A stretch of DNA of 64,000 nt from Acidiferrobacterales bacterium (GTDB lineage: Bacteria; Pseudomonadota; Gammaproteobacteria; Acidiferrobacterales; SPGG2), in assembly GCA_046760105.1 (NCBI GenBank), contig JBHIDJ010000003.1:19718-83717 (forward strand), in the 5' to 3' direction. The notes under the pieces were generated by a model. It was not told the DNA's origin, made no database searches, and saw nothing but the letters and a program-made list of their open reading frames with translations. Positions 43,369 through 58,289 of the stretch are shown one piece after another. The position numbers and the translations under genes are program-made. Position 1 is the stretch's first letter; every line of letters begins with the position of its first letter.

Positions 43369-43385
43369 TTGTTAATTTTTCACAG
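43369..43385. promoter_or_regulatory. CRP-like operator candidate (TGTTA-N5-TCACA)
   Basis: TTGTTAATTTTTCACAG lies in the divergent intergenic region, 157 nt upstream of the Sel1 gene ATG. It is one mismatch from the palindrome TTGTGAA-TTT-TTCACAA seen at 57099. Confidence 0.4.
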
Positions 43386-43541
43386 CTTTTTAACAGCATA
43401 TTTCACAGAAGCTACACGCGTCTTTGGACTAATGTATTGAGCATATACAAAGGCGGTCTTGGCATACCTTCGAGGAGCTAACTGGTCGTCGAGAACAAGG
43501 TAAACCGGGTAGTTCCGTGCCTGACCGCAAGCGAGGACACT

Positions 43542-44324
43542 ATGTGCAGATTGCAGAGAAGAACAGCATCAACCATAGCGGAAGGTGAGGTGAAGGGTGA
43601 AGAATCAGGGAGAACTCTGCTGTTCAGCGGTCTCCTCCTGGGCACGCTCTATTTTTTTACTCCGTGCATAAGCCAGGCCACAGTCACGTACCATCATCAG
43701 GTGGCGGACAAGGCGCTACCTTCGCTACACGAAACAGGCCTCCTCGCGTATCGCTACAGTGAAGCCGACAAGGCAATAGAGCGCGGAAATTATGAGCAGG
43801 CTATCCATATCCTCCAGTTGCTAGCGAAACAGGGAGCCATGAAGTCCCAGTATGATCTAGGGGTCATGTATTACCATGGGCTTGGCGTTAAGCAAGACAA
43901 GGCCGAGGCCATGCGATGGAACCGTATGGCGGCCGAACAGGGGCACATAGCCGCGCAATACAACATGGGCATCGCCTATTCAACGGGGACAGGCGTCGAC
44001 CTAGACGCCGTTAAAGCTGCCGACTGGTGGCGCAAAGCCGCCCTTCAAGGCAGCACCGAGGCACAGTTTAATCTCGGTCTGATGTACGCCCAGGGTGACG
44101 GCGTGACCCAGAATATGATGCAGGCAGCCCGATGGTGGTACGAGGCAGCGACGCATGGCGATGCCGCTGCGCAGTATGCCCTCGGTCTCATGTTTGCCAG
44201 GGGCGATGGCGTTACCCAGAACCTCAACGAAGCGGCGAAGTGGTGGTATCTGGCAGCAAGCCAGGGATTTGAACGCGCCAAGAATGCCTTGAACAAGCTT
44301 CGCCTTATCGTGATACCGAAATAA
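43542..44324 (+). CDS. Sel1-like repeat (SLR) protein, probably secreted
   Basis: About five Sel1 repeats (AQYNMGIAYSTGTGV..D..KAADWWRKAA..G). A hydrophobic signal-like segment LLFSGLLLGTLYFFTPCISQA suggests the start may be downstream of 43542. The last 49 nt lie inside direct-repeat copy A. Confidence 0.85.
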   Translation: MCRLQRRTASTIAEGEVKGEESGRTLLFSGLLLGTLYFFTPCISQATVTYHHQVADKALPSLHETGLLAYRYSEADKAIERGNYEQAIHILQLLAKQGAMKSQYDLGVMYYHGLGVKQDKAEAMRWNRMAAEQGHIAAQYNMGIAYSTGTGVDLDAVKAADWWRKAALQGSTEAQFNLGLMYAQGDGVTQNMMQAARWWYEAATHGDAAAQYALGLMFARGDGVTQNLNEAAKWWYLAASQGFERAKNALNKLRLIVIPK

Positions 44325-44361
44325 AAGGCGCGCAGACGCTATCGCAGTCCTCACCGATGAC
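44276..44361 (+). repeat. 86-bp direct repeat, copy A (covers the Sel1 gene 3' end, stop and 37 nt downstream)
   Basis: CGCCAAGAATGCCTTGAACAAGCTTCGCCTTATCGTGATACCGAAATAAAAGGCGCGCAGACGCTATCGCAGTCCTCACCGATGAC. It matches 46542..46627 at 83 of 86 positions by hand alignment. Confidence 0.85.
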
Positions 44362-44608
44362 ACGGAATCAGGGATTCCCTAATATAGAGGGTCACGGAAT
44401 CCTTGATTGACGCGGAGCCCGAAATCGGCGTTGATTTCATAGGACCAACGACTAGCAACAATAATAGCAATAGCGCGTTTTCCAGCGCCAAACGTCTCCG
44501 GGGAAGGGATCCCCAGCATGCACAGCCACAACGGCTCCGACAAGAAGCTACGGGGCTTTGGTCCGCCTCTGACGCAAATAGACGCATCCACCTGAGGGAG
44601 GGTCCAAC

Positions 44609-46315
44609 ATGAAAAACCTCCAAATAGTGCTGAACCTCACGCGCAACCACAATCGTTTCGCCAGCCAGAGCGTTGATCTGATCGCGTCAAACTCGTGGAT
44701 TAGCCAGTTCGCACGGCTCGCCATGACCTCCTCGCTGCCGAACAGCTACTGCATCGGTCTGCCGGGTAACCGCCTCTACGGCGGATGCACCTACATCGAC
44801 ATGATCGAACGGGAGATTTGTCGACTCGCCCGCGAACTGTTCCCGATGGAGCACGTGGTGTTGCAGTTCCTCTCAGGCATGCAGGCCAACATCGGTGCCT
44901 ACAACGCCGTACTCAAACGGGGTAATACTGTAATGGCTGCCCAGTTGAAGCACGGGGGCCACTACAGTCACAACCCGCAAGGCCCATTGCGCCTTTTTTC
45001 GGCAAAACTCGTGCCGGTGCCCTTCGACGACTCCTGTTACAACATCGACGTCGATGAGCTCGCCAAGTCGCTCGCAACGCAGAAGCCAAAGCTTCTTATC
45101 GTGGGCTGGAGCGAGTTTCTGTTCCCCCATCCGCTCCCTGAGATCCGCGCGCTGTGCGACAAGCACGGCGTTCGCTTGATGTACGACATGTCGCACGTTG
45201 CCGGGCTGATCGCTGGGAAAGTCTTCCAGCCCGATGCGACCAAGTATGCCGACATCGCCACCAGCTCAACCGGCAAGTCGCTGCACGCGCCCGACCACGG
45301 CATGGTCTTTTTCAACGACAAGTCGCTAGAGACGGGTGTCCTTGACGCCGTGATGCCCCTGCTTACTTCCAATACGCACCCACACGAGATGGCGGCACTC
45401 GGCGTTGCCTTTGCCGAGATGGTAGAGTTCGGCCGAGACTACGCCTTACAGGTCGTGCGCAACTCCAAGGCCCTGGGCCGTGCGCTCGAAGAGGAGGGGC
45501 TCAAAGTCCTTTATGCGCATCTAGACTATAGCGAGAGCCATACCGTGCTCGTGGAATACGTCGCCTCGAGCGTTGCCGTGGCCCTGCTGGACCGGACCGG
45601 TATTCTGTGCAACACGTGCCCACTTCCATGGGATCCCCCACGTACCGAGACGGGTCTGCGGCTCGGGACTCAGGTCCTAACACGGCGCGGGATGCGCGAG
45701 CCCGAAATGCAGGTGATCGCCCAAGGGATCGCACGGGTACTTCTGCATGGCGAACACCCGGATCGCGTGGCCTACGAGTTTGTCAAGCCACTCGCCCAGC
45801 GATTCGATCGAACGGTGTACTCGTTTGACTTTCACTTCCCGCTGCAGCAGGACTGGTATGGCGCCCCGTACGAAGGCTACCGCGCGGAAAATGTCGACGA
45901 TGTAATCCACGAGCTCGTACCGTTCGCAAACTGCACACCCGAGCAGATCCGATCACTCGCCGAACAGCTTACTCTCGTCGTTATCGACAAGGAACAAGTG
46001 TTATTCGAGACGGGCGATGCCTCGGATAGCGTGTACTTCATCAGTGAGGGAATCGTGGAGATCATGGACCGGTCCGGTAACACGGATGTTGTGATCGGGT
46101 CTCTCGGAGAAGGCAAGCACTTCGGGGAGCTTGGTGTGATGAAAGGCATCAACCGTACCATGACTGCACGAGCACAGCCTCGCACGCGTCTGTTCCGCAT
46201 GAAGGCCGCAAACTTCGAAGAGCTGCTCAAAGACGTCCTACCGCTCAGACAGTACTTCGAGGATTACGTCCACATCATCGAAGAACAAAACCGCTGGCGA
46301 CAGCGCGCCATGTAA
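44609..46315 (+). CDS. SHMT-fold PLP-dependent enzyme fused to a C-terminal cyclic-nucleotide-binding (CAP_ED) domain
   Basis: aa 1-~430 carry GlyA-like motifs: LIASNSW, LYGGC, SGMQAN, HGGHYSH, DMSHVAGLIAG, SSTGKSL (Lys223). aa ~434-545 form a cNMP domain with the cassette FGELGV...RTMTARA. A GAGGGAGGG Shine-Dalgarno precedes the ATG. Confidence 0.85.
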   Translation: MKNLQIVLNLTRNHNRFASQSVDLIASNSWISQFARLAMTSSLPNSYCIGLPGNRLYGGCTYIDMIEREICRLARELFPMEHVVLQFLSGMQANIGAYNAVLKRGNTVMAAQLKHGGHYSHNPQGPLRLFSAKLVPVPFDDSCYNIDVDELAKSLATQKPKLLIVGWSEFLFPHPLPEIRALCDKHGVRLMYDMSHVAGLIAGKVFQPDATKYADIATSSTGKSLHAPDHGMVFFNDKSLETGVLDAVMPLLTSNTHPHEMAALGVAFAEMVEFGRDYALQVVRNSKALGRALEEEGLKVLYAHLDYSESHTVLVEYVASSVAVALLDRTGILCNTCPLPWDPPRTETGLRLGTQVLTRRGMREPEMQVIAQGIARVLLHGEHPDRVAYEFVKPLAQRFDRTVYSFDFHFPLQQDWYGAPYEGYRAENVDDVIHELVPFANCTPEQIRSLAEQLTLVVIDKEQVLFETGDASDSVYFISEGIVEIMDRSGNTDVVIGSLGEGKHFGELGVMKGINRTMTARAQPRTRLFRMKAANFEELLKDVLPLRQYFEDYVHIIEEQNRWRQRAM

Positions 46316-46541
46316 CGCCAGTAATCAACTGACCAGGCGGCAAATTTTTTGGCGCCAGCTGCCGGCCGTCCCGACCCCGCATCCAGATACGCTAGGCACC
46401 GAAGCTTGGCCCTGCCGGTTTCGATTGACCCTCTTGATCACTCTCTCGCGAGCCTCGACGCTCTATCTTCCCCTTGACCTAGGTGCGCGGCAGTTGCCGA
46501 TACCGAAAGTGCGGGCCCAGAGATTCCACGGTTTCTTTGGC

Positions 46542-46627
46542 CGCCAAGAATGCATTGAACAAGCTTCGCCTTATCGTGATACCGAAATAAAAGGCGCGTA
46601 AACGCTATCGCAGTCCTCACCGATGAC
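46542..46627 (+). repeat. 86-bp direct repeat, copy B (orphan copy of the Sel1 gene 3' end)
   Basis: Same sequence as 44276..44361 with 3 substitutions, 2266 bp downstream. The sequence upstream of copy B is not Sel1-like in the matching frame. Confidence 0.85.
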
Positions 46628-46719
46628 GACCGGCTGGGCGCCACCGCAAGCTGTGGCCAGCGCCCCAGGCGATAATTCAATACCACCTCAATGCTAAAGA
46701 TGCGGCGGTGACGACAGAG

Positions 46720-47454
46720 CTACCAGCCTGCTGGCAGCTTTTTCTTGATAGTAATCCTCTTGTCTTCGACTCTTATATATCCACCCGTCGCAAGATCTTT
46801 CAAGATGCGGCTTACCATCTCCCTTGATGCCCCCACCATGTTAGCAATATCCTGCTGAGTTAACTTTTCGGAGATTACGAAATTGCCGTTTTCCGCTGTA
46901 GCGAGGTTTGATAATGTTCTCGCAACCCGTCCGTAGACGTCCCTTAGGGCGAGGCCTTTCACGTTATCAGTCAGCATCCGTATTCGATGCGTTAACTCCT
47001 TGATGAGGGTAATCGCAATATCGGGATTCTTGGCCAGACACTCCTTGAAATCGCTCTTCGAGATGATCGAAAACCTTGAGGGCTCCAACGTCATAACAGA
47101 TGCGGACCTGGGGGCGTCATCAAGTAACGCTATTTCGCCAAAGTACTCTCCTGGCCCTTCTATATCGAGGATGATTTCTCTTCCTTGCTCGTCACTCAGA
47201 AACACTTTCACTTTGCCCGTCAGAATAACGTAGAGCGAGTCAGTAGTATCCCCCTCATTGATGACGATGGTATTTCTTGGGAATGTCTTCGTGACTGCGT
47301 GGCCGGATACCGTCGCGAGATCCGCTTGTGCCAGGCTCGCAAAAAGCGGGATGCCCTCGAAGACGCCCCCCGTCTGCGCGGCGGTGAGACCCGTATACCG
47401 GACTGAATTGTAGCCCACCGTCGCTTGCGCTGCGCTCAGATTGCTGGTAGTCAC
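46720..47454 (-). CDS. Crp/Fnr-family transcriptional regulator with a cNMP-binding domain
   Basis: 244 aa. The cNMP cassette is FGEIALLDDAPRSASVMT (RS as in the E. coli CRP cAMP site). The HTH is TQQDIANMVGASREMVSRILKDL, retaining the CRP R-E-x-x-x-R DNA-contact pattern (CRP: SRETVGR). Confidence 0.9.
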   Translation of the reverse strand: MTTSNLSAAQATVGYNSVRYTGLTAAQTGGVFEGIPLFASLAQADLATVSGHAVTKTFPRNTIVINEGDTTDSLYVILTGKVKVFLSDEQGREIILDIEGPGEYFGEIALLDDAPRSASVMTLEPSRFSIISKSDFKECLAKNPDIAITLIKELTHRIRMLTDNVKGLALRDVYGRVARTLSNLATAENGNFVISEKLTQQDIANMVGASREMVSRILKDLATGGYIRVEDKRITIKKKLPAGW

Positions 47455-47550
47455 CGTTCTACCCTCCTTGCGTTCTCACGAACGCGCTAATACTGCGGCT
47501 GCGCTGAAACTACACCAATTATTACTATACATAGATTTAGGAACTGCTCG

Positions 47551-47566
47551 TGTGTAAGATTTCACA
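47551..47566. promoter_or_regulatory. CRP-consensus-like site (TGTGT-N6-TCACA)
   Basis: TGTGTAAGATTTCACA starts 97 nt upstream of the crp-like gene start, adjacent to the N5 palindrome at 47573. Confidence 0.35.
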
Positions 47567-47572
47567 GGGATT

Positions 47573-47589
47573 CTGTGAAAAATTCACGG
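47573..47589. promoter_or_regulatory. CRP-like operator candidate (TGTGA-N5-TCACG)
   Basis: CTGTGAAAAATTCACGG lies 119 nt upstream of the crp-like gene (possible autoregulation). It also forms the inverted repeat TTTCACAG-GGATT-CTGTGAAA with the preceding half-site. Confidence 0.45.
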
Positions 47590-47629
47590 TTTACGGTACC
47601 CACCAGCAACGAGATGGGAAGATTTGTAG

Positions 47630-47673
47630 TGCGAACGAGCTGGTCGGGAGTTCGAGTCTCTCCGGGCGTGCCA
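47630..47673 (+). other. tRNA 3'-half fragment with encoded CCA (tRNA-Arg-like architecture); no 5' half present
   Basis: TGGTC GGGAG TTCGAGT CTCTC CGGGCGT G CCA reads as variable loop, canonical T-arm (G53, T54 T55 C56, A58, C61), 7-nt acceptor strand, discriminator and CCA. No complementary ACGCCCG-type 5' acceptor strand occurs in the preceding ~100 nt, and the anticodon stem cannot pair. Confidence 0.55.
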
Positions 47674-47974
47674 ATAATCAAAGAGTTACACTCACCCTCG
47701 CGGTAGCAGGTCGTGGCGAATCACCAATGAGTCACCACAGGGGCGGCTGTTCAACCGCGTCGGAGAGGCAGACCGAGCAAACATGTAGTCGAGCTGTGAT
47801 CAAGGCTTTTAAATTTTCACAATCTCCCCTCCGTATTGGTACGCCTTCGCCCGGCGCAAGCGGGAATTACGATACGGAAGATCGCAACACCCGTCGCAGT
47901 GCACTCCTTGGGTTAGTCGGCCCGCAAGTAACTCACGCCCCTGCTGAGTGCCGGCATGCCCCGAAGTCGTCAGG

Positions 47975-48838
47975 TCACACAGTTCCAACCGTGAGCACTT
48001 CGAGCATGCTGAAGTAGAGCTCGTCTCGGTCGAGGATATACTCATCAGAGGCGGGGTCAAAATGCGCTCTCCACTGCGCATAGTCTTCCACTGATAGATA
48101 TGGCTCTGCCATTCTCGCGTGCCATTCACTATTGCCGGCGATGTATCGCTTGGCCGCAGGCGTCAACGGCGCGAGCTTCTGAATGGCATAACTCTTCGTC
48201 CACACGTCCTTGAGCCCCGCTTTTAGAAACGACCCATGCGTTTTTCTCCCAGCGAAATTGTCAAAGTACTTTTCTGATCGATCACGAGCGCGCGAGGCCC
48301 CCAGAAGGACCTTCAGGGTCAGGGTAGGATCGATGGGATGTAATATAAAGTCGGCGCCGTCGAAATCCTTGGCCGCAATCCTCCCGCCTTTTCTTGTCAC
48401 GCGCTTCTGCTCCTCCAGAATCCTGAGATGATCCTCGACATAAGTGAAGCAACCTCCGAAAAACACGAAGTCGACCCTGTCATCGTCGAGCGGTATCGCT
48501 GAGAAATCGGCTTGGCGAAAGCTCATCAGGTCCTTCAGTGGGTTATGCTGGCGTTGCTTTTCGGCGTACGCCAACAGCTCCACAGAGATATCAACGCCGA
48601 TGATCCGCCCATCCGGCTTGACCTTCTCTGCAAACAGGGGACTCCATAAACCTGGTCCACATCCCAGGTCCAACACCACATCCCCGGGGGTGAGATAGAG
48701 GTCATCGACCAGTTGCCGTCGCTCGTGTTGCTTTGTTTCATGATGATCCAGGAGCCACCGGAGCTCGGTCAGCTCCAGGCCATCCGGACCGGTGTTGAAT
48801 GCGACATCGACGGACATGGGACCCCCTTGTTGTGACAT
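47975..48838 (-). CDS. Class I SAM-dependent methyltransferase
   Basis: 287 aa with SAM motif I VLDLGCGPGLW and a downstream acidic loop IGVDIS; Methyltransf_11/25-like. Confidence 0.85.
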   Translation of the reverse strand: MSQQGGPMSVDVAFNTGPDGLELTELRWLLDHHETKQHERRQLVDDLYLTPGDVVLDLGCGPGLWSPLFAEKVKPDGRIIGVDISVELLAYAEKQRQHNPLKDLMSFRQADFSAIPLDDDRVDFVFFGGCFTYVEDHLRILEEQKRVTRKGGRIAAKDFDGADFILHPIDPTLTLKVLLGASRARDRSEKYFDNFAGRKTHGSFLKAGLKDVWTKSYAIQKLAPLTPAAKRYIAGNSEWHARMAEPYLSVEDYAQWRAHFDPASDEYILDRDELYFSMLEVLTVGTV

Positions 48839-49241
48839 TGGGAACCGTATTTCCCATTGTTCACGGCGCCATACGGCGCCAGTTTATCCTGAAGCCGGCC
48901 GCAATAGTTGCCAGGGGGCGGCCACATCCCGACTCAGGACGCGCTGAGCGGTAGGCCTGTCGGCGGGCCTCAGAGCTGTTTTGAAATTCTGAGTGACCCC
49001 TGTGCCGAACATAGAGACAACAACGAGGCTATTGTCAAATTATACGCCGAAAGACCGTCCCAGCCCGAATTGACATTTCACCAAATTAGTCGAATCCTTT
49101 GTTCTTTACGGCGAGGTAAGAGGTAATATACGGTGCCGTACTCAGAACGCACTATAAAGACATAAACGAGCTACTCTCAACGAGTCCCGTGCCGTTCAAA
49201 TCAGAGGGCACCGCCCCGCGACCTCTGGCGAGGAGACAACT

Positions 49242-51029: not shown

Positions 51030-53291
51030 ATGTTGCGATTGCTTTCGATCCGAGACCGACTCTTCCTTCTGCTGATGCTGCTCGTCGCGTCGCTCGTCTT
51101 CACCAACCTCCTGCTGATCAACCAGACGAGAAACCTCGAGCACTCCATCCGTCAACAGGCGCACAACATCGATCGCATGGTGAAAGTCGATGCAGCGGTC
51201 AAGACCTTCGGCGACCTTAAGTACTGGCTGACTGCCTGGGCACTTAACGTCGACGCCCATGCCGAGAAGCGTGCCAAGGACGCCCGCGACCTCCTAAACG
51301 GACAGCTATCCGAGCTCAAACCGGATCTGCCGGAGGTGGTCGCCGATGTGCCTGGGCAGGCGGCCGATCTGGTGAGCGAGACAAGCGCGGCCGCGGAAGC
51401 GTTCGCGCGTGATAACTATGCCGTTGCCAAGGGCCTGATCCGCAGGGGGCATGGGCATGTTTTGGCGGTTGATGCCAAGCTTTCAACGGTGGTGGGTAGC
51501 CTCCAAGAAAAAGCTCAGAGTGCTGCCGCGAGAGCGTTGCGGGAGACTTCGCAGGATGTTCAAACCGCCTTATGGATCGTCGTGCTGGTGAGCCTCGTGG
51601 CCGCCACCTTGACCTTTCTAATCGTGCGCTCGGTGGTCATGCCGCTGCGACAAGTGGGCGGGGTGATAGGCGCTATGAGCGCTGGCGAGATGGACGTCCC
51701 TCTGCCGCCAGCGAGCCGTGATGAGATCGGGGATATGGTGCAGGTGCTCACCCTGTTCCGGGAGAACGTCGCACGACGCAGGGCAATCGAACAGGACTTG
51801 CGCGAGGTGCTCGATGCCATCGAATACGGCATCCTGTTCATGGATTCGAATTTGCAGATTCGCATCGATAACCGCGCCTACCGCGAAATCTGGGGTATCC
51901 CCGAGAGCTTTCTCGCCCAGAAGCCCCACCTGCGGGAGTTAATGGAGTACAACCGCGAACACGAGATCTACGATGTCCCCGAGGGTGGGTGGGAGAACTA
52001 CGTCGAAGGCCGTATCGACTCCATTCAAAAGGGGAGTATTCCCCCGACGGAGCTGCACCGCGCCGACGGCAAGATAATCCAGTATCAGTGCGTCGCCCTT
52101 CCAGACGGCGGTCGGATGCTCACGTATTTCGACATTACCGAGATCAAGCGCGCCGAGCAGGCGCTGCGCGAGAGCGAGGAGCGTTACGCCCTGGCGATGA
52201 TGGGCGCCAATGAAGGGCTGTGGGACTGGGACTCGCGCGCCAATGAGATTTACGTCTCCCCGCGCTTCAAGACGATCTTCGGGATGGAGACGGAGGCCCT
52301 CAAAATCACGCCAGCCGACTGGGAGGCCTGCATCCATCCGGATGACCGTGCCCACTACCGCCAGGCATTTCAGGCGCACTTGCGCGGTGACACCGAGTTC
52401 TACCAATCCGAATGCCGCGTGCTGTTGCCCGATGGAGCCCAGCGCTGGGTCCGGATGCGCGGCATCGGCCTGCGCGATGAACGCGGCCGGGTATATCGCA
52501 TGGCCGGATCCGTCGGCGATATCACTGCGGGCAAGCAAGCTGAAATCGAGCTACGCCAAGCCAAGGATGAGGCCATGCAAGCGAGCAACGCCAAAACCCA
52601 GTTCCTCGCCAACATGAGCCATGAGCTGCGCACACCTCTGAACGCCATCTTGGGTTATACGGAGCTGATCCTGGACCAGGTATACGGCGAGGTGCCCGAC
52701 CAGACCCGGGATGTTCTCGAGCGCGTGGAGCAGAGCGGCCGCCACCTACTTGGGCTCATCAACGACGTTCTCGACCTCTCCAAGATCGAGGCAGGTCGCT
52801 TCACGCTGCCCCTCGCCGACTATTCCATGCAGGAGGTGGTCGGGAACGTCATTAGCACAGTCGAATCATTGGGGGCGGAAAAAAATCTGGCCCTGAACGT
52901 TTCGCTTCCACCTGATCTGCCTATCGGAAGGGGGAACGAACAACGCATCACCCAGGTCCTGCTGAATCTCATCGGGAACGCAATCAAGTTTACTGACGTC
53001 GGGGAGGTTTCAGTAGAGGTAACGGTATCCGACGAAAACTTTGTCGTTTCCGTGTCCGACACCGGGATCGGCATATCGGAAGCGGATCAAGCGGAGATTT
53101 TCAAAGAATTTCAGCAGGCGGACAATTCCGTCACACGCGAACGTGGGGGCACAGGCCTCGGTCTCGCCATCGCCAGGCGCATGATCGAAATACAGGGGGG
53201 GCGCGTGTGGGTTCAGTCGACCCGGGGCAAGGGTTCGACCTTTTCGTTCTCACTGCCCATCCGGGTCGAGCCACAGCCGGAGGCGACATGA
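51030..53291 (+). CDS. Sensor histidine kinase (2 TM + periplasmic helical domain, HAMP, 2x PAS, HisKA, HATPase_c)
   Basis: H-box FLANMSHELRTPLNAILGYTE, N-box LLNLIGNAIKFT, G-boxes DTGIGI and GGTGLGLAI. Two PAS-like blocks occupy aa ~270-520. Confidence 0.9.
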   Translation: MLRLLSIRDRLFLLLMLLVASLVFTNLLLINQTRNLEHSIRQQAHNIDRMVKVDAAVKTFGDLKYWLTAWALNVDAHAEKRAKDARDLLNGQLSELKPDLPEVVADVPGQAADLVSETSAAAEAFARDNYAVAKGLIRRGHGHVLAVDAKLSTVVGSLQEKAQSAAARALRETSQDVQTALWIVVLVSLVAATLTFLIVRSVVMPLRQVGGVIGAMSAGEMDVPLPPASRDEIGDMVQVLTLFRENVARRRAIEQDLREVLDAIEYGILFMDSNLQIRIDNRAYREIWGIPESFLAQKPHLRELMEYNREHEIYDVPEGGWENYVEGRIDSIQKGSIPPTELHRADGKIIQYQCVALPDGGRMLTYFDITEIKRAEQALRESEERYALAMMGANEGLWDWDSRANEIYVSPRFKTIFGMETEALKITPADWEACIHPDDRAHYRQAFQAHLRGDTEFYQSECRVLLPDGAQRWVRMRGIGLRDERGRVYRMAGSVGDITAGKQAEIELRQAKDEAMQASNAKTQFLANMSHELRTPLNAILGYTELILDQVYGEVPDQTRDVLERVEQSGRHLLGLINDVLDLSKIEAGRFTLPLADYSMQEVVGNVISTVESLGAEKNLALNVSLPPDLPIGRGNEQRITQVLLNLIGNAIKFTDVGEVSVEVTVSDENFVVSVSDTGIGISEADQAEIFKEFQQADNSVTRERGGTGLGLAIARRMIEIQGGRVWVQSTRGKGSTFSFSLPIRVEPQPEAT

Positions 53292-53653
53292 ACGGGCGGA
53301 TTCTGGTAGTCGAGGATCAAGAGGATAACCGTAAGATCATGCGCGACCTGCTGACCAACGCCGACTACGAAGTGATCGAAGCGGTGACCGGCGACGAGGG
53401 GGTGGCCATGGCGCAAACCCACGTTCCCGACGTCATCCTCATGGACATAAACCTCCCCGGGCTCGATGGATACGAAGCGACGCGCCAGATCAAAGCCAAT
53501 CCCGCGCTCCACCACATTCCGATCATCGCAGTCACCTCCTACGCGCTAAGCGGCGACGAGGCAAAGGCCCGGGAGGCCGGCTGCGACGCCTATTTCAGCA
53601 AACCGGTCAGCCCGCGCGCGCTCCTGGCCAAGGTGCGCGAGTACACCGGATAA
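53288..53653 (+). CDS. Single-domain response regulator (CheY-like)
   Basis: MNGRILVVEDQEDN..., ILMDINLPGLDG, AVTSYA, FSKP. The ATG at 53288 overlaps the kinase stop as ATGA. Confidence 0.88.
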   Translation: MNGRILVVEDQEDNRKIMRDLLTNADYEVIEAVTGDEGVAMAQTHVPDVILMDINLPGLDGYEATRQIKANPALHHIPIIAVTSYALSGDEAKAREAGCDAYFSKPVSPRALLAKVREYTG

Positions 53654-53672
53654 GCGCCCCGAGGAGCAAATT

Positions 53673-54842
53673 GTGAGAACGCCACCGCAGATCCTCATCG
53701 TGGACGACAACCCGACGAACGTGGATATCCTTCAGGCACGCCTCACCGTGCACGGCTATGACATTCTCACGGCGAGCGACGGCGAGCAAGCTGTAAGCAT
53801 CGCCAGAGAAAGGCAGCCAGATCTCATTTTGTTGGATGTCATGATGCCAAAAATGGATGGCATCGAGGTCTGTCGACACCTCAAAGGCGATCCCTCGCTG
53901 CCGTTTATGCCGATTATCCTGGTCACAGCTAAGTCGGATTCGAAGGACGTGGTCGCCGGTCTGGAGGCGGGTGCCGAGGAGTATCTGACCAAGCCCGTAG
54001 ACCAACAGGCGCTCGTGGCAAGGGTCAAGTCGATGTTGAAGATTAAGGACCTCCACGATACGACCCAAGAGCAGGCGGCCCAGCTCTCGCAGTGGAACCG
54101 GACGCTCGAGGAGCGCGTCAAGGAGCAACTCGCAGAGCTGGAGCGCATGAGCCAGCTGAAGCGATTCTTCTCTCCGCATCTCGCGAAGCTCATCGTGTCC
54201 TCCGGAGACAAGAGCTTCCTCAAAAGCCACCGACAGGATATCACCGTGCTCTTCTGTGACCTCCGCGGGTACACGACATTCGCGACGAGCGCCGAGCCCG
54301 AAGAGGAAATCCAGCTGCTGGACGAGTACCACAAGGTCGTCGGTTCCTTGGTATTCGGCTTCGAGGCAACCCTGGAGCACTACGCCGGGGATGGGATCAT
54401 GGCGTTCTTCAACGACCCGATACCCTGTCCTTCTCCGGCGGTGCGCGCCATCCGGATGGCATTGGCGATGCAACGGGAGGTCGGCGAGTTGCTCGAGGGG
54501 TGGCGGAAACGCGGCTTCGACTTGGGGTTCGGCGTGGGGATTGCCATGGGGTACGCCACGTTGGGACAGATCGGTTTCGAAGGCCAATTTCACTACGCCG
54601 CCGTCGGCTCTGTGTCTAACCTTGCGGCGCGCCTTTGCGACAAGGCCCAAAGCGGGCAGATCCTGATCTCCCAGCGGGTCTACGCGGAACTCGAGGGGCT
54701 GGCAGAGGCTGAACCGGTCGGAGAGCTCGCTCTCAAGGGATTCGAGAAGCCCTTACCCGCCTATAACGTGCTCGCAATAAAGGCCGATGAATCTCCTCAC
54801 GAGGAAACTCAGTCTCCGGGGTCGAGCGACGGGAGGCGGTGA
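53673..54842 (+). CDS. Response regulator with a class III adenylate/guanylate cyclase output domain
   Basis: REC (ILIVDDNPTN, ILLDVMMPKMDG, VTAKS, LTKP), a coiled-coil linker, then CYCc (ITVLFCDLRGYTTFA..., GDGIMAFFNDP, GIAMGYATLGQIGF..., NLAARL). Confidence 0.88.
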   Translation: MRTPPQILIVDDNPTNVDILQARLTVHGYDILTASDGEQAVSIARERQPDLILLDVMMPKMDGIEVCRHLKGDPSLPFMPIILVTAKSDSKDVVAGLEAGAEEYLTKPVDQQALVARVKSMLKIKDLHDTTQEQAAQLSQWNRTLEERVKEQLAELERMSQLKRFFSPHLAKLIVSSGDKSFLKSHRQDITVLFCDLRGYTTFATSAEPEEEIQLLDEYHKVVGSLVFGFEATLEHYAGDGIMAFFNDPIPCPSPAVRAIRMALAMQREVGELLEGWRKRGFDLGFGVGIAMGYATLGQIGFEGQFHYAAVGSVSNLAARLCDKAQSGQILISQRVYAELEGLAEAEPVGELALKGFEKPLPAYNVLAIKADESPHEETQSPGSSDGRR

Positions 54843-55107
54843 CGCGTGCATTCGGCCCTTGCGGATAACAGACAGATATCATGTATTGACCTACCCGTTC
54901 TCAAGCGACGTGAGTTAGGTCGGCCGTAAGCAATGGGATGGACTCCTCCTCACCTCAACGGCATCTAGGTGCCAGACTATATCGGCTTCATCCACATAGG
55001 ACCATGTTCCACATCGTTGAATCACGGTTAGCCTTGCCCAATTGAGACAAGAGGGGCAGTCGGTTTGTAGGTCGGCCTAGGAGATCGCGTCACATAAGGA
55101 TCATTCC

Positions 55108-56340
55108 GTGCAAAGCAGCCTTCAACAGCATCCCGTCCTCGTTCTGGGTGCCTTCTTCCCAGCTCTTGGGGTTGTCCACTCCTTGGCGCCCAAGGGCGCC
55201 ACATGCTGGATCTGCGATTCACGCCGAAACGTTGCTGGTTGGTCCCGTCACGCGCACTACCGGTGCATACCCGATCCCCGACTCGACGACCGGAGAATGA
55301 TCGATCGGCTGCTTGCACTCGCGCGCACGGTCGGAGGTAAGCCGATCCTGGTGCCCACGGACGATCATTTTGCGCAAGTGCTTGCCCGCCATCGGGTTGA
55401 ATTGGAAGAGGCCGCGATCCCATGCGTCGCACCGAGTGAAGCTGTCGAGCTGCTTGTCGATCAACAGCGGTTCTGTGAATGGGGGCAAGCGAACGATGTC
55501 AGCTGTCCAAAAGCTGTCCGGGTCAGCGAAGCCCTCGGCTCGCTTGCTCTGCCCTTTGTTGCGAAGCCCATCAACAAGTCGTCCTTCGAAGTGACTGCGC
55601 GCAAGCTCCCACGTGGTCAACAGGCGAGCGACTTGCGTTTCAAGTTCATCCGCAGCGCGGAGGAATGGCAGGTTTACAAAGATGAAATCTGCCCCAATCT
55701 CGAGCATATTCTGGTCCAGGAGTTCATCGAGGGTACGACCACCGATATGTACTCGATCGGCGTCTACGCCGATCGGCAATCCTGCATCAAGGGGCTCTTC
55801 GTTGGTCGGAAGCTTCGCGGTTACCCTGCCTTGTACGGGAACACGAAACTTGGACAGAACGACCGCGTTCCCAACGATGTGTTGGACGAAGTGACGCGCA
55901 TCGTCCGAGAACTTGCCTACACCGGCATCGCTGAGTTCGAATATAGGCGGGAACCCACGACCGGCCACTTTCGCCTTATCGAGATCAATCCGAGATGCTG
56001 GAGCTGGATCGGTGCCACCGCTGTGTCCAAGGCCGACATTCCTTGGATCGCCTTTCAGGATTTGACCGGCGCGAAACTAGGCGGCGTTATCCAAAATGGC
56101 TCCCCAGGATCGATCAAATACGTGCAGATCATGTCGGACTTCGCAAACGTGTTCTTGCGCTACCGCTGGGATTATCCTGCTTGGCTCATGGGGCCGCGGG
56201 CCTGGTGGAACAGTCTCAAAGCTGAAAAGTTAGTGATTGCGGAATTCGACCGGGGTGACTGGCCTGTCGCGCTTTTCTACTTCGCATTGGTCTTACAGAA
56301 TGCCGCCATACTTCTTATTAGGCGACTAAGGAAGCGTTGA
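55108..56340 (+). CDS. ATP-grasp domain protein (COG3919-like predicted carboxylate-amine ligase)
   Basis: 410 aa, GTG start with AAGGA upstream. Pre-ATP-grasp Rossmann-like N-terminus (VLVLGAFFPALGVVHSLAPKG), a central LVQEFIEG motif and EFEYRREPTTGHFRLIEINPR, typical of ATP-grasp C-lobes. Confidence 0.7.
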   Translation: MQSSLQQHPVLVLGAFFPALGVVHSLAPKGATCWICDSRRNVAGWSRHAHYRCIPDPRLDDRRMIDRLLALARTVGGKPILVPTDDHFAQVLARHRVELEEAAIPCVAPSEAVELLVDQQRFCEWGQANDVSCPKAVRVSEALGSLALPFVAKPINKSSFEVTARKLPRGQQASDLRFKFIRSAEEWQVYKDEICPNLEHILVQEFIEGTTTDMYSIGVYADRQSCIKGLFVGRKLRGYPALYGNTKLGQNDRVPNDVLDEVTRIVRELAYTGIAEFEYRREPTTGHFRLIEINPRCWSWIGATAVSKADIPWIAFQDLTGAKLGGVIQNGSPGSIKYVQIMSDFANVFLRYRWDYPAWLMGPRAWWNSLKAEKLVIAEFDRGDWPVALFYFALVLQNAAILLIRRLRKR

Positions 56341-56443
56341 TTCCTGGACCGGCTCCGCTCACGGTCCAACTGTTGATTGCGCAGCTGCAGACGGCGGTCG
56401 CAACGCTGATTAATACCTTTGATGACTCACAGGAGGAACGAAG

Positions 56444-56818
56444 ATGCGGGTTGTGCGAAAGGACTTTTCGGACCTTTTGAAGCTGTTCATATTGGCGATC
56501 TGTGCATGGGGTTTACCTGAACGCCATTGGTCCGGCGTTTGCCGCAGGCTCACCAAGGCAGAGTTGTGGAAGAACAAGAAAAGGACTGAGACTGCTGTCC
56601 ACCGAATTCGAACCGCATGCGACGGTCGGGCCATACCCCTCAGCCCGGAAGACGTGGAGCTCGAACGCGCGGCGGCGCATTACCTGGATCGCCTTCAGAT
56701 CTTCGCCGATTATCGCCCCCGCGGCTGGTCTCCAGAGATCGAGTTACACGGGCGAGAGCATCTGGATGAGGCCCTCGCCCAGGGCCGGGGCGCAATCCTC
56801 TGGGCGCTGCACGGATGA
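56444..56818 (+). pseudogene. Possible truncated lysophospholipid/lipid-A acyltransferase (LPLAT, LpxL-like) N-terminal fragment
   Basis: The 124-aa ORF (AGGAGG Shine-Dalgarno) ends ...IELHGREHLDEALAQGRGAILWALHG*, exactly where LpxL/LPLAT proteins carry the H(x)4D catalytic block. No continuation appears in any frame downstream. It could instead be an intact small protein. Confidence 0.4.
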
Positions 56819-57098
56819 ACCCCAGTGCGGTTGGTCTAAACAAACGGATTCTAAGCTTGCCATTCTGAACAGACGTCTCTGTGGCATTAATAACGGCCGA
56901 CCTAAAAAAGTCGTGCAAGACAGTCCTCGCTCGCTCGCTTAGGCCATCCGCCCTCCGCGGCGGCGATGCGGGACAGGAAATACCATAGTGCTCCAGGTGA
57001 GCCGCTGCCCAGCGAGCTCTCTTTGACCTAACGCACACAAATACCCCTTTGAGGCCGCTCGAAGCAGCATCTTGCCTGTTGCCTGCTGTTGTATAGGG

Positions 57099-57115
57099 TT
57101 GTGAATTTTTCACAA
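57099..57115. promoter_or_regulatory. Perfect 17-bp palindrome, CRP-like operator candidate (TGTGA-N5-TCACA)
   Basis: TTGTGAATTTTTCACAA, followed 5 nt later by an extra half-site TTGTGAA (57121..57127). A TATAGT -10-like hexamer lies at 57159..57164. Confidence 0.5.
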
Positions 57116-57187
57116 ATTGTTTGTGAAAACCTCCCTGGAGTACTGATGCTCACCGCAATATAGTGAGGATCGCCATCGGGCTCGTGG

Positions 57188-57204
57188 GCGTGAATTTCTC
57201 ACAA
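57188..57204. promoter_or_regulatory. CRP-like operator candidate (CGTGA-N5-TCACA)
   Basis: GCGTGAATTTCTCACAA lies 89 bp downstream of the perfect palindrome, in the same ~700-bp non-coding stretch upstream of the second Sel1 gene. Confidence 0.4.
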
Positions 57205-57512
57205 TTTCTGATGGCAACGCTACATAGAGCGAGCAACCAGGAGTCTAGTAAGGTGACAAGCATCCAAACATTTAGCGGGTTATCCGGGCGAGGGCTCGCG
57301 CTGCAGACGCGAGGCTTATCCGCTGCGGCACCCACAGTGACTATGAACAGAAGGAATGACGAGACGATACAAGAGTACGAACGCCCGATACCTGGGGTAA
57401 CTGGTAGGGACGTTTTTTGTGCATGGATTGTAGTCGCTACATTTCTGCTCGGGTTGCTTGTGTTGTCCGTGGTTTAACGAGAACCCGAAAAATAGCAAGA
57501 GAGAATTCGCGA

Positions 57513-57938
57513 ATGCGGTTGACCAAACTCATAGCCTCGCTATTTGTCAGAGGTGGGCAAACGCTCCACATGCGAACTTATAAGGAAGGATTGGCCGCCT
57601 ATAAGTCTGGGCACTATAGCGCGGCAGTAGCTAGTCTAAGGCCGTATGCTAAGAAGGGCGATGCACTGGCGCAGCTGACGCTTGGCAACATGTACAAGAA
57701 AGGTCTTGGGGTGCCGAAGGACCTCGATCAAGCGGCGCATTGGTACCGCAAAGCGGCGACTCAGGGGGATCCTGACGCGAAGTTTAATCTGGGAATCATG
57801 TACATCAGGGGGGACGGTGTAACCGGCGACAAAGGTCAAGCGTTAAACTGGCTGAAGGACGCGGCAGAACAGGGCCACAGACAAGCCAGGCTCGCTTATG
57901 AATACATCACGAGGCAAGAGTACCAGAACGTCTGTTGA
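57513..57938 (+). CDS. Sel1-like repeat protein (short)
   Basis: About three Sel1 repeats (AQLTLGNMYKKGLGVPKDLDQAAHWYRKAATQGDPDAKFNLGIMYIRGDGV...). I prefer the ATG at 57513 over the longer track ORF from 57417. Confidence 0.8.
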   Translation: MRLTKLIASLFVRGGQTLHMRTYKEGLAAYKSGHYSAAVASLRPYAKKGDALAQLTLGNMYKKGLGVPKDLDQAAHWYRKAATQGDPDAKFNLGIMYIRGDGVTGDKGQALNWLKDAAEQGHRQARLAYEYITRQEYQNVC

Positions 57939-57981
57939 CCGGCGATCGCAGCAAAGGTCAGCATTGATGCGCACGCACTGA

Positions 57982-58278
57982 CGCAAACTTCAGTTTCGCA
58001 TCGGCATCGACCTGAGGGATGTCATCGTCGATCGACACCACATTTATGGCGACGGCGTCAATGTGACAGTGCGCTTTCAAAGTCTGGCTGAGCCGGGTGG
58101 CATTTGTCTCTCCCAAACGGCGCACGAAGCCATCAGCAACAAACTACCGCTTACCTACGAATTCATAGGCGAGCAATCCGCGAAGAACATTAGCAAGCTG
58201 CTACCGGCCTTGCGTGTCAGGATGGAACCGGGCTACCAGCCAACCGATATCCCTGCCCTCATATCCCAACTAGTGTGA
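57982..58278 (+). pseudogene. 3' fragment of a class III adenylate/guanylate cyclase gene
   Basis: The frame reads, straight after a TGA at 57979: RKLQFRIGIDLRDVIVDRHHIYGDGVNVTVRFQSLAEPGGICLSQTAHEAISNKL..FIGEQSAKNISKLLPALRV. This matches the C-terminal half of CYCc domains (RIGIh.G.v....d.yGdgVN.AARLesLAepGgI.iS). The N-terminal half is absent and AARLES has degenerated to TVRFQS. Confidence 0.6.
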
Positions 58279-58289
58279 ATACTTCACAG
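58273..58289. promoter_or_regulatory. CRP-like operator candidate (TGTGA-N5-TCACA; 15-bp perfect core)
   Basis: GTGTGAATACTTCACAG lies 213 nt upstream of the ATG at 58502. Confidence 0.5.

What the first reader, a model, noticed from the sequence alone, without database searches (positions are those of the whole stretch)
43369..58289. Recurrent TGTGA-N5-TCACA palindrome at five intergenic sites: candidate regulon of the adjacent CRP-like regulator
Seen in sequence:
- TTGTGAATTTTTCACAA (57099), a perfect 17-bp palindrome.
- GTGTGAATACTTCACAG (58273), with a perfect 15-bp core.
- CTGTGAAAAATTCACGG (47573).
- TTGTTAATTTTTCACAG (43369).
- GCGTGAATTTCTCACAA (57188).
All five are intergenic, all have AT-rich 5-nt spacers, and all lie in the accessory half. 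There is also one classical-spacing site, TGTGTAAGATTTCACA (47551), and an extra half-site at 57121. The sites lie upstream of the crp-like gene itself, both Sel1-repeat genes and the Cys-rich hypothetical gene.
Established knowledge: E. coli CRP recognises TGTGA-N6-TCACA through Arg180/Glu181/Arg185 of the recognition helix (SRETVGR). The regulator at 46720..47454 keeps this pattern (SREMVSR).
Inference: these are its operators, but with a spacing 1 bp shorter than canonical CRP sites, which is unusual for the family. The regulon would link cNMP levels to secreted repeat proteins.
Basis: partly seen in the sequence, partly recalled or inferred. Interest (0 to 1): 0.65.

Follow-up and report, generated by a model that had tools for sequence, protein, structure and literature searches.

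The report
CRP-like regulator with 15-bp operator
The repeated TGTGAA-N3-TTCACA palindrome is a real, evolutionarily conserved DNA signal that travels with one subfamily of CRP-like cyclic-nucleotide regulators, and is almost certainly their operator, with half-sites one base pair closer than in every characterised CRP/FNR protein I know of.

Summary
With the refined consensus TGTGAA-WWW-TTCACA, the window has 6 sites at 2 mismatches or fewer against 0.15 expected, and 7 at 3 or fewer. All lie at 43.2-58.3 kb around the CRP-like gene (46720-47454, minus strand).

The motif is not a local accident. In 62 independent loci that encode regulators with the same recognition helix (SREM[V/I]SR), TGTGAA-N3-TTCACA at 1 mismatch or fewer occurs 26 times, against 0-2 at every other spacing. 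It occurs 0 times in 63 loci of the sister SREMVN[R/K] group. In an unbiased enumeration of 5,145 dyads, TGTGA-N5-TCACA ranks first (19 observed, 0.24 expected).

Sites are intergenic and mostly independent in their flanks. In four orthologues (76-84% identity), an invariant GTGAATTTTTCACA sits about 125-128 bp upstream of the regulator's start codon. The two Sel1-repeat targets and their sites are conserved in the 76% orthologue.

No LysR or LacI regulator genes accompany the sites, and the RNA hairpins are weak.

The gene module resembles the S. meliloti CHASE2-cyclase/Clr cascade, but the operator is 15 bp, not 16.

Binding, the ligand and the direction of regulation remain untested.

The parts
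46720..47454 (-). CRP/FNR-family regulator (244 aa) with recognition helix SREMVSR. Proposed binder of the 15-bp sites.
   Evidence: Pfam cNMP_binding + HTH_Crp_2 + Crp. 34% identical to E. coli CAP, with R180/E181/R185, E72 and R82/S83 equivalents kept and T127/S128 changed to L/T. Closest solved structure is M. tuberculosis CRP, E 5e-35. Scores 134.9 bits against the NCBIfam CRP equivalog, whose cut-off is 266.
47574..47588 (-). Autoregulatory N5 site. On the gene's strand it reads CGTGAATTTTTCACA; its centre is 127 bp upstream of the GTG start.
   Evidence: GTGAATTTTTCACA is invariant in window, L164 (84%), L084 (80%) and L001 (76%), while the flanks diverge.
47551..47566 (-). Second, N6-type element. 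On the gene's strand it reads TGTGAAATCTTACACA; its centre is 22.5 bp downstream of the N5 centre.
   Evidence: Conserved as GTG.A.T...AC..A in four orthologues. As a count it is at chance level. It would be centred at -41.5 if the conserved ATAGT is the -10 element (inference).
47524..47529 (-). Conserved -10-like hexamer TATAGT of the regulator promoter. It places the N5 site centre near -64.
   Evidence: ATAGT is invariant in the four-way alignment, 52 nt downstream of the N5 centre. No TSS data exist, so the position is inferred.
47807..47821 (.). Distal degenerate site TTTTAAATTTTCACA, 233 bp upstream of the main autoregulatory site.
   Evidence: 2 mismatches. L084 has a second site 96 bp upstream of its main site. 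A tRNA-3'-like stretch lies between the two sites in the window.
43236..43250 (.). Distal site upstream of the 260-aa Sel1 gene, CGTGAAATATTTACG.
   Evidence: Aligns with the perfect L001 site TGTGAAATATTCACA upstream of the orthologous Sel1 gene. Found at 3 mismatches or fewer.
43370..43384 (.). Proximal site upstream of the 260-aa Sel1 gene, TGTTAATTTTTCACA. A conserved half-site TTCACAGAA follows at 43402.
   Evidence: Aligns with CGTTAATTTGCCACA, and the TTCACAGAA half-site is identical, in L001.
43542..44324 (+). Sel1-repeat protein (260 aa), a target gene.
   Evidence: Pfam Sel1, E 2.5e-41. 50-53% identical to the L001 248-aa Sel1 protein (the figure depends on which is used as query), which also has an N5 site upstream.
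57100..57114 (.). Strongest site in the window, TGTGAATTTTTCACA (7+7 perfect arms including the flanking T/A). A half-site TGTGAAA follows at 57122-57128.
   Evidence: It has no counterpart in the L001 alignment.
57189..57203 (.). Proximal site of the small-ORF/Sel1 operon, CGTGAATTTCTCACA.
   Evidence: Aligns with the perfect L001 site TGTGAATTTTTCACA. The conserved 12-nt block CTACATAGAGCG (57220-57231) starts 17 nt downstream.
57343..57477 (+). Conserved 44-aa ORF (hydrophobic C-terminal half) between the site and the Sel1 gene. Probably the first gene of the regulated operon.
   Evidence: The reading frame and ATGAACAGAA start are conserved in L001. Translated by eye.
57513..57938 (+). Sel1-repeat protein (141 aa), a target gene.
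   Evidence: Pfam Sel1. 74% identical to the L001 141-aa Sel1 protein, which has an N5 site upstream.
58274..58288 (.). Site TGTGAATACTTCACA upstream of a Cys-rich hypothetical gene.
   Evidence: It sits at the end of a cyclase gene fragment.
58415..59161 (+). Hypothetical Cys-rich protein, a putative lineage-specific target. The likely start is the ATG near 58502, after AGGAGA.
   Evidence: No Pfam or NCBIfam hit. No homologue in any fetched locus.
51030..54842 (+). HAMP-PAS histidine kinase (51030-53291) and response-regulator/class III cyclase (53673-54842). Candidate local source of the cyclic nucleotide.
   Evidence: Pfam. A 51% orthologue of the RR-cyclase lies near the regulator in L014. 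The link to the regulator is inferred only.

Best explanation
The sites are operators of the neighbouring CRP/FNR-family regulator.

**Proposed binding mode.** The regulator is a homodimer. Each subunit reads the CAP-type half-site TGTGA(A) through the conserved Arg-Glu...Arg recognition helix (SREMVSR). The two half-sites are arranged as a 15-bp dyad, TGTGAA-WWW-TTCACA. That is TGA-N5-TCA rather than the TGA-N6-TCA geometry of CAP, FNR, Clr and CgrA. The centre-to-centre distance of the pentamers is 10 bp instead of 11, which still puts them on one face of the helix. The AT-only centre probably supplies the narrow or bendable minor groove at the dyad.

**Proposed function.** On binding a cyclic nucleotide, the protein controls:
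- its own promoter, with the N5 site near -64, an N6-like element near -41.5 and a conserved TATAGT;
- a small local regulon. In this genome that is two Sel1-repeat genes (one preceded by a 44-aa membrane ORF) and a Cys-rich hypothetical gene. In other genomes it includes Sel1, PAS-GGDEF and BTAD-regulator genes.

In most relatives the regulator is divergent from a CHASE2-domain class III cyclase followed by a FecR/TPR/beta-barrel protein. The pathway is therefore most likely envelope signal, then cyclase, then cNMP, then regulator, then protein-interaction or signalling proteins. In this window the CHASE2 cyclase is absent, and a two-component-controlled cyclase 6 kb away is the candidate input.

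**Shown:** the motif, its subfamily-specific enrichment, conservation of sites and targets, and the protein features.

**Inferred:** binding itself, dimer geometry, activation versus repression, the ligand and promoter positions.
For: - **Window enrichment.** 6 sites against 0.15 expected, all within 15 kb around the regulator.
- **First set of related loci.** In 1.07 Mb, exact TGTGA-N5-TCACA occurs 10 times, against 0-2 for N2-N9.
- **Split by recognition helix.** GTGAA-N3-TTCAC occurs 12 times exactly in S-type loci, against 0-1 at other spacings and 1 in N-type loci.
- **Independent metagenome replication.** 7 against 0-1.
- **Pooled counts.** 26 against 0-2 at other spacings, and 0 in N-type loci.
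- **Unbiased dyad enumeration.** The motif is rank 1 of 5,145, with 19 observed, 0.24 expected, P about 1e-29, and 0 in N loci.
- **Independence of sites.** 30 sites fall into 24 flank-independent groups.
- **Centre composition.** The three centre positions, which the search did not constrain, are 96% A/T.
- **Location.** 20 of 27 sites, and every site with 0-1 mismatch outside the window, are intergenic in DNA that is 81% coding. The one 0-1-mismatch site scored as coding (47574) lies in the doubtful ORF 47550-48017.
- **Autoregulatory position.** 9 of 59 S-type regulators have a site with 1 mismatch or fewer within 350 bp upstream, against 0 of 62 N-type. The block is invariant in four orthologues.
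- **Conserved targets.** Orthologous Sel1 targets carry orthologous sites.
- **Accompanying DNA-binding families.** Crp is the only DNA-binding family found in most site-bearing loci: Crp 15, BTAD 4, and no LysR or LacI among the top 25 families.
- **DNA-contact residues.** The CAP contact residues are conserved.
Against: - There is no experimental binding or expression evidence.
- Only 18 of 63 S-type loci show a site with 1 mismatch or fewer. Many of those contigs are short, but some long ones (L166, L170) have none.
- By construction, every locus contains the regulator. A trans-acting factor encoded elsewhere that co-occurs phylogenetically with this subfamily cannot be excluded.
- No whole genome could be scanned, so the genome-wide density of the motif is unknown.
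- Nothing in the protein sequence explains the shorter spacing. The N-type sister group has the same domain lengths.
- Sigma-70 scans found no clear promoters at the sites.
Confidence: 0.8

Rival explanations
1. The palindrome is the recognition site of a different transcription factor. One candidate is a LysR-type regulator: GTGA-N7-TCAC fits the T-N11-A LTTR box, and a strong dyad near -65 plus a weaker element near -40 resembles the RBS/ABS layout. Another is a LacI-type repressor: lacO1 reads TGTGA-N5-TAACA.
For: The motif formally contains T-N11-A. A GTGA-N7-TCAC string occurs in a P. putida paper on the GntR regulator CsiR and the LysR regulator GcdR (PMC6667623, listed; the paper was not opened). 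The strong-plus-weak element layout at the regulator's promoter also fits.
Against: - No LysR (HTH_1/LysR_substrate) or LacI family appears among the 25 most frequent Pfam families in 124 proteins encoded within 3 kb of sites. Crp is present in 15 and BTAD in only 4.
- The motif tracks the recognition-helix subtype of the CRP-like protein.
- The half-site is exactly the CAP half-site.
- LacI-family operators have a central CG, whereas this centre is 96% A/T.
Confidence: 0.08
2. The sites are bound by the host's housekeeping CRP, or another CRP paralogue, which tolerates a 5-bp spacer. The adjacent regulator is merely one of its targets.
For: The half-site TGTGA is identical to the CAP half-site. 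E. coli CRP sites are known to vary in spacer length, with 6- and 8-bp classes (review PMC10187061). A classical-spacing element lies next to the N5 site in the regulator's promoter.
Against: - No enrichment of N6 sites accompanies the N5 sites.
- N5 sites are absent from 749 kb around the sister subfamily.
- The density is about 1 near-perfect site per 25 kb, clustered around the S-type gene. That is not what a global regulon looks like.
- According to the review, the GT-N10-AC core is conserved across characterised CRPs.
Confidence: 0.07
3. The motif has no regulatory role. It is chance, a dispersed repeat or MITE end, or an RNA hairpin or terminator.
For: The sites lie in AT-rich intergenic DNA, where A/T-rich dyads are commoner. 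Two window sites share 27 nt at 81% identity (D14).
Against: - Shuffles: 0 of 100 reach the observed count.
- The motif recurs across unrelated taxa with unrelated flanks, giving 24 independent groups.
- Other spacings are not enriched.
- The RNA hairpins are weak, at -3.2 to -5.9 kcal/mol with z between -0.25 and -1.35.
- No terminator-like features occur at the sites.
- There are no Rfam hits.
Confidence: 0.02

Closest known systems
Sinorhizobium meliloti Clr with the CHASE2 cyclases CyaD1/CyaD2/CyaK and the outer-membrane protein NsrA
   Same: A CRP-family cNMP receptor is encoded next to a CHASE2-domain class III cyclase. Signal perception goes through an outer-membrane beta-barrel protein. 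Targets are extracytoplasmic or protein-interaction proteins with FecR and TPR domains (PMC5498481, PMC13001267). Orthologous loci here carry CHASE2-cyclase plus a FecR/TPR/TonB-barrel-like protein beside the regulator, with Sel1 (TPR-like) targets.
   Different: The Clr operator is 16 bp, HGTYHC-N4-GRWACA (GT-N10-AC), with recognition helix RPKVNR. Here the operator is 15 bp, TGTGAA-W3-TTCACA, with helix REMVSR. The hosts are Gammaproteobacteria/Acidiferrobacterales, not rhizobia. The window itself lacks the CHASE2 cyclase.
E. coli CAP/CRP
   Same: Same domain architecture and 34% identity. R180/E181/R185, E72 and R82/S83 are conserved. The half-site TGTGA is identical.
   Different: - CAP uses TGTGA-N6-TCACA (a minority class has N8); here the spacing is N5.
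- The regulator scores far below the CRP equivalog cut-off, 134.9 against 266 bits.
- T127/S128 are replaced by L/T.
- The AR1 loop is 3 residues shorter.
- This is a local regulon, not a global one.
Rhodospirillum centenum CgrA (cGMP-responsive CRP homologue)
   Same: A CRP homologue encoded with its cyclase genes (gcyB, gcyC). It is autoregulated through a strong palindrome upstream of its own operon (PMC4681086).
   Different: The CgrA site is the canonical TGTGAAGCAGTTCACA (N6). ChIP-seq variants are GTG-N8-CAC and GTG-N10-CAC, never N7.
Mycobacterium tuberculosis CRP (Rv3676)
   Same: Closest solved structure by sequence (3d0s, E 5e-35, full length).
   Different: It recognises a 16-bp CAP-like site (own knowledge). 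The query has a 4-residue deletion between helix D and the first strand of the DNA-binding domain.

Membership tests
CRP/FNR superfamily | N-terminal cNMP-binding beta-roll domain plus C-terminal Crp-type helix-turn-helix | tested here: met
   PF00027 5e-26, PF13545 5e-16, PF00325 8e-10. Full-length matches to CRP structures.
CRP/FNR superfamily, CAP-like DNA reading | Recognition helix with Arg180, Glu181 and Arg185 equivalents | tested here: met
   ASREMVSRILK aligns with CSRETVGRILK.
Canonical CRP (NCBIfam NF008732 equivalog) | Whole-protein score at or above the curated cut-off (266 bits) | tested here: not met
   134.9 bits.
Canonical CRP / characterised CRP-FNR regulators | Even-length operator with TGA-N6-TCA (GT-N10-AC) geometry: TGTGA-N6-TCACA, TTGAT-N4-ATCAA or HGTYHC-N4-GRWACA | tested here: not met
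   The associated dyad is TGTGA-N5-TCACA. N6 is not enriched. The statement about known geometry comes from the review PMC10187061.
Canonical CRP | cAMP contacts E72, R82, S83, T127, S128 | tested here: inconclusive
   E72, R82 and S83 are conserved; T127/S128 are replaced by L/T. The ligand cannot be assigned.
Any CRP-type regulon | Demonstrated cNMP-dependent binding of the protein to the sites | not testable with these tools
   Needs EMSA, DAP-seq or ChIP.
Clr/CyaD-type CHASE2 cyclase-CRP module | CHASE2-domain class III cyclase encoded beside the regulator | tested here: inconclusive
   Met in orthologous loci L001, L009, L013, L164, L170 and L171. Not met in the window itself: tblastn finds no CHASE2 cyclase.
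LysR-type operator (rival) | T-N11-A dyad with a divergently or closely encoded LTTR gene | tested here: not met
   The motif fits T-N11-A formally, but no LysR family is among the top 25 Pfam families near sites.

The most novel reading that the evidence does not exclude
A widespread clade of CRP-family receptors (recognition helix SREMVSR; sulfur-oxidising and other Gammaproteobacteria, some Desulfobulbaceae) has shifted its operator geometry by one base pair, to a 15-bp dyad. This would make its circuit orthogonal to the housekeeping CRP in the same cell, even though both read the same TGTGA half-site.

The shift would insulate a second cyclic-nucleotide pathway. That pathway is fed by CHASE2 cyclases whose substrate-specifying residues (Asp/Arg instead of Lys/Asp or Glu/Cys) hint at a non-cAMP product.

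The autoregulated promoter combines an N5 site near -64 with an N6-type site near -41.5. It could therefore integrate both regulators.
Probability: 0.35. Interest if true: 0.75.

Novelty: new variant of a known kind. Interest (0 to 1): 0.6.

Why it matters
According to a 2023 review, CRP/FNR proteins keep the GT-N10-AC operator core 'even in phylogenetically distant species'. A natural subfamily that reads the same half-site at a 1-bp shorter spacing would matter in three ways:
- It would show that dimer/DNA geometry in this fold is evolvable.
- It would give a simple mechanism for insulating paralogous cNMP circuits.
- It would supply an orthogonal CRP/operator pair for synthetic biology.

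It also assigns a testable regulon (Sel1-repeat proteins, PAS-GGDEF, BTAD regulators, self) to an uncharacterised, environmentally common CHASE2-cyclase signalling module. That module is analogous to the Clr cascade of rhizobia. The prediction is cheap to test, because Marinobacterium nitratireducens (L013) is cultured.

Tried and rejected
- **tRNA and Rfam scans** of the window and of 47400-48000: nothing found.
- **Sigma-70 promoter scans**: no hits at the sites, so promoter positions rest only on conserved -10-like blocks.
- **Iterated PWM**: it drifted onto a conserved coding segment inside the regulator genes of the Burkholderiales group and was dropped in favour of mismatch counting.
- **Dyad enumeration in N-type loci**: uninformative, because those loci are syntenic and closely related.
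- **Full-text literature search** for the motif and spacing strings: no paper describes it. This is absence in the held library only.
- **Source contig**: it could not be retrieved beyond the window. Exact protein matches lie only on contigs of 1-6 kb, so no genome-wide scan was possible.
- **More distant S-type loci with adjacent Sel1 genes** (L126, L039) have no N5 site. L166 and L170 have none either.
- **The Cys-rich target gene** has no homologue in any fetched locus.
- **Structure prediction** was not run, because a monomer model cannot address dimer spacing.

Full report
**1. Observation**

- TGTGA-N5-TCACA at 1 mismatch or fewer gives 5 matches against 1.42 expected; 1 of 100 shuffles reaches 5.
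- The classical N6 pattern gives 1 match against 1.15 expected.
- After comparison with related loci, the consensus sharpens to TGTGAA-WWW-TTCACA. With it the window has 6 matches at 2 mismatches or fewer against 0.15 expected; 0 of 100 shuffles reach this.
- At 3 mismatches or fewer there are 7 matches. All 7 lie between 43236 and 58288, and none lies in the remaining ~49 kb.
- The half-site TTTCACA occurs 9 times in 64 kb, 7 of them in these intergenic regions.

Minor corrections:
- The arms are perfect, but the 3-nt centres are not self-complementary, so '17-bp perfect palindrome' is overstated.
- Two sites were missed (43236 and 47807).

**2. The neighbouring protein**

ORF 46720-47454 (minus strand) has cNMP_binding plus HTH_Crp_2/Crp domains.

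- It is 34% identical to E. coli CAP. The recognition helix ASREMVSRILK aligns with CSRETVGRILK, so R180, E181 and R185 are kept. E72 and R82/S83 are kept. T127/S128 become L/T, and the AR1 loop is 3 residues shorter.
- The closest solved structure is M. tuberculosis CRP.
- It reaches only 134.9 bits against the NCBIfam CRP equivalog, whose cut-off is 266. It is therefore a CRP-family member but not an orthologue of CRP.
- The same protein is annotated only as 'Crp/Fnr family transcriptional regulator [Acidiferrobacterales bacterium]' in a MAG. A near-identical 6-kb contig, L163, has the same gene order.

**3. Comparative test**

This is the key result.

- Eighty loci encoding relatives were fetched from species-representative genomes. 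In their 1.07 Mb, exact TGTGA-N5-TCACA occurs 10 times, against 0-2 for every spacing from N2 to N9. The hits read TGTGAA(A/T)3TTCACA.
- The relatives split by recognition helix:
  - an SREM[V/I]SR group ('S': gammaproteobacterial MAGs, Marinobacterium nitratireducens, Thioalkalivibrio, one Desulfobulbaceae);
  - an SREMVN[R/K] group ('N': mostly Burkholderiales, next to ftsK).
- GTGAA-N3-TTCAC is exact 12 times in S loci, against 0-1 at other spacings and 1 in N loci.
- An independent scan of metagenome contigs, with duplicates removed, replicated this: 7 against 0-1 in 33 new S loci.
- Pooled, TGTGAA-N3-TTCACA at 1 mismatch or fewer occurs 26 times in 62 S loci (649 kb, window excluded). Every other spacing gives 0-2, and 63 N loci (749 kb) give 0.
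- An enumeration of all 5-mer inverted dyads with spacers of 0-10, done without prior assumptions, ranks TGTGA-N5-TCACA first of 5,145 in S loci. It has 19 observed against 0.24 expected (Poisson P about 1e-29) and 0 in N loci.
- The 30 best sites fall into 24 groups with unrelated flanks, so this is not a dispersed repeat.
- The three central positions, which the search left free, are 96% A/T in genomes of about 55% G+C.
- Twenty of 27 sites are intergenic where about 81% of the DNA is coding. Every 0-1-mismatch site outside the window is intergenic. The one scored as coding (47574) lies in the doubtful ORF 47550-48017.

**4. Link to the regulator**

*Autoregulatory position.*
- Nine of 59 S-type genes have a site with 1 mismatch or fewer within 350 bp upstream, against 0 of 62 N-type genes and 0-1 for other spacings.
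- In the four closest orthologues (window, L164 at 84%, L084 at 80%, L001 at 76%), GTGAATTTTTCACA is invariant at about 125-128 bp from the start codon, while the surrounding DNA has diverged.
- Three conserved features lie downstream of it:
  - an invariant ATAGT, which is TATAGT in the window at 47524-47529 on the minus strand, 52 nt from the N5 centre;
  - the AGGAGG ribosome-binding site.
- If TATAGT is the -10 element, the N5 site is centred near -64 and the N6-type element at -41.5. That is a class I plus class II-like layout. This step is inference, because no TSS data exist and the sigma-70 scan is silent.

*Conserved targets.*
- L001 has three N5 sites. One is in the regulator/cyclase divergent region. 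Two are upstream of Sel1-repeat genes of 141 and 248 aa.
- These are orthologues of the window's Sel1 genes: 74% identity to 57513-57938, and 53% to 43635-44321.
- Pairwise alignment of the upstream regions shows islands of identity exactly at the sites:
  - 57189-57203 together with a 12-nt block, CTACATAGAGCG, 17 nt downstream;
  - 43236-43250 and 43370-43384, together with the half-site TTCACAGAA.

*Accompanying DNA-binding families.*
- Among 124 proteins encoded within 3 kb of sites in 18 loci, Crp is the only DNA-binding family found in most of them (15 proteins). BTAD/Trans_reg_C occur in 4 and 3.
- No LysR or LacI family is among the 25 most frequent families.

**5. Gene context and probable pathway**

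- In many S loci the regulator is divergent from a 733-772-aa CHASE2 plus class III cyclase protein. That is followed by a 1,081-1,128-aa FecR/TPR/TonB-barrel-like protein.
- Sites elsewhere precede other gene types:
  - PAS-GGDEF genes, in L012 and L015;
  - BTAD regulators, each with two sites, shown by Pfam in L009 and L037. L093 and L129 have the same two-site layout, but their downstream genes were not scanned individually;
  - small unknown genes.
- Extra cNMP-binding proteins are common in these neighbourhoods: 18 cNMP_binding against 15 Crp.
- The window has no CHASE2 cyclase or FecR/TPR gene. It does have a HAMP-PAS histidine kinase and a response-regulator/cyclase at 51030-54842, and an SHMT-cNMP_binding fusion at 44609-46315.
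- The best-supported model is: an envelope or two-component signal activates a class III cyclase, the cNMP activates the CRP-like dimer, and the dimer binds the 15-bp operators at its own promoter and at a handful of nearby genes.
- The ligand is unresolved.
  - The C-helix pair that reads the base in CAP is L/T here.
  - By eye, the CHASE2 cyclases carry Asp and Arg where adenylyl cyclases have Lys/Asp and guanylyl cyclases have Glu/Cys.

**6. Geometry (inference)**

- In CAP, FNR, Clr and CgrA, the TGA/TCA cores are separated by 6 bp. The CRP review states that the GT-N10-AC core is conserved even in distant species (PMC10187061). CgrA footprints on TGTGAAGCAGTTCACA (PMC4681086).
- Here the cores are separated by 5 bp.
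- The centre-to-centre distance of the pentamers is 10 rather than 11 bp. Both are within half a base pair of one helical turn, so same-face binding of a dimer remains plausible with a somewhat different DNA twist or bend.
- The strictly A/T centre fits a compressed minor groove at the dyad.
- Nothing in the sequence (domain lengths, hinge) distinguishes S from N proteins, so the structural cause is unknown.

**7. Rivals**

- *LysR-type box.* The motif formally contains T-N11-A, and a strong-plus-weak element layout is LTTR-like. But no LTTR genes accompany the sites, and the motif tracks the CRP-like subtype. Probability about 0.08, together with other non-CRP factors.
- *LacI-type operators.* They share TGTGA...TCACA but have a central CG.
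- *Housekeeping CRP tolerating N5.* This does not explain the absence of N6 enrichment or the clustering around S-type genes. Probability about 0.07.
- *Chance, repeat or RNA hairpin.* Excluded. Shuffles never reach the observed count, flanks are independent, hairpins are only -3.2 to -5.9 kcal/mol with z between -0.25 and -1.35, and there are no terminator-like features or Rfam hits.

**8. Comparison with known systems and novelty**

- The closest system is the S. meliloti cascade: NsrA, then CHASE2 cyclases CyaD1/D2/K, then Clr, with FecR-domain and TPR targets (PMC5498481, PMC13001267). It has the same logic and domain set but a different, 16-bp operator.
- CAP and CgrA share the half-site but not the spacing.
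- Full-text searches for the motif and for N5 notations found no description.
- I therefore rate this a new variant of a known kind: a CRP-family subfamily with a 15-bp operator and a local regulon.
- Membership of the CRP/FNR superfamily is met. Membership of 'canonical CRP' is not met, on both the score and the operator geometry.

**9. Limits**

- There are no binding, expression or TSS data.
- No whole genome could be scanned.
- Only about 30% of S loci show a strong site.
- The direction of regulation and the ligand are inferred or unknown.

Confidence that the motif is a genuine conserved cis-element is about 0.97. Confidence that the adjacent CRP-like protein binds it is about 0.8.

Noticed in passing
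window 44276-44361 and 46542-46627: An 86-nt direct repeat (97% identical) duplicates the 3' end of the Sel1 gene on both sides of the SHMT + cNMP-binding fusion gene (44609-46315). The 84% orthologous locus L164 has only a Sel1 fragment and a cyclase-cNMP gene at that place. This suggests a gene insertion with target duplication.
   Followed up: partly
window 44609-46315 (+): Serine hydroxymethyltransferase fused to a C-terminal cyclic-nucleotide-binding domain (568 aa). This is an unusual enzyme-sensor fusion inside the same cNMP-signalling neighbourhood, and is also present on contig L163.
   Followed up: no
window ~47632-47675 (+): A stretch resembling the 3' half of a tRNA (T-arm GGGAGTTCGAGTCTCTCC, acceptor, CCA) lies between the two sites upstream of the regulator. 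ARAGORN and Rfam report nothing. It may be a remnant att site of an integrated element.
   Followed up: partly
window 57343-57477 (+): A conserved 44-aa ORF with a hydrophobic C-terminal half lies between site 57189 and the 141-aa Sel1 gene. Its frame and start are conserved in L001, so it is probably a small membrane protein co-transcribed with Sel1.
   Followed up: partly
window ~57990-58278 (+): A C-terminal fragment of a class III nucleotide cyclase (pseudogene remnant) ends at the 58274 site. A further fragmentary ORF at 56444-56818 has no Pfam hit.
   Followed up: no
L001 7329-9647, L009 7572-9812, L013 7379-9619: The CHASE2 cyclases beside the orthologous regulators carry Asp (SDV[IV]GD) at the position of the adenine-specifying Lys or guanine-specifying Glu. 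They carry Arg (EFRAVGD/EYRA[IV]GD) at the second specificity position. The product nucleotide is therefore unclear (read by eye and not validated against structures).
   Followed up: no
L024 11139, L027 10928, L029 4537: Arenicellales relatives with recognition helix SREMVNK have TGTTAA-N4-TTCACA (classical 16-bp spacing) right next to the regulator gene. This hints that spacing differs between sister subfamilies.
   Followed up: no
window 47551-47566 with L164, L084 and L001 counterparts: The N6-type element next to the N5 site is conserved as GTG.A.T...AC..A. It would be centred at -41.5 if the invariant ATAGT is the -10 element, which suggests a composite promoter that might take input from two CRP-type proteins.
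   Followed up: partly
L167 (Logan SRR29324584), site at 1265: The same sequencing run that holds the window's exact regulator also holds a second S-type regulator, 67% identical. It has a TGTTAATTTTTCACA site downstream of it, so it is either a paralogue or a co-occurring relative.
   Followed up: no
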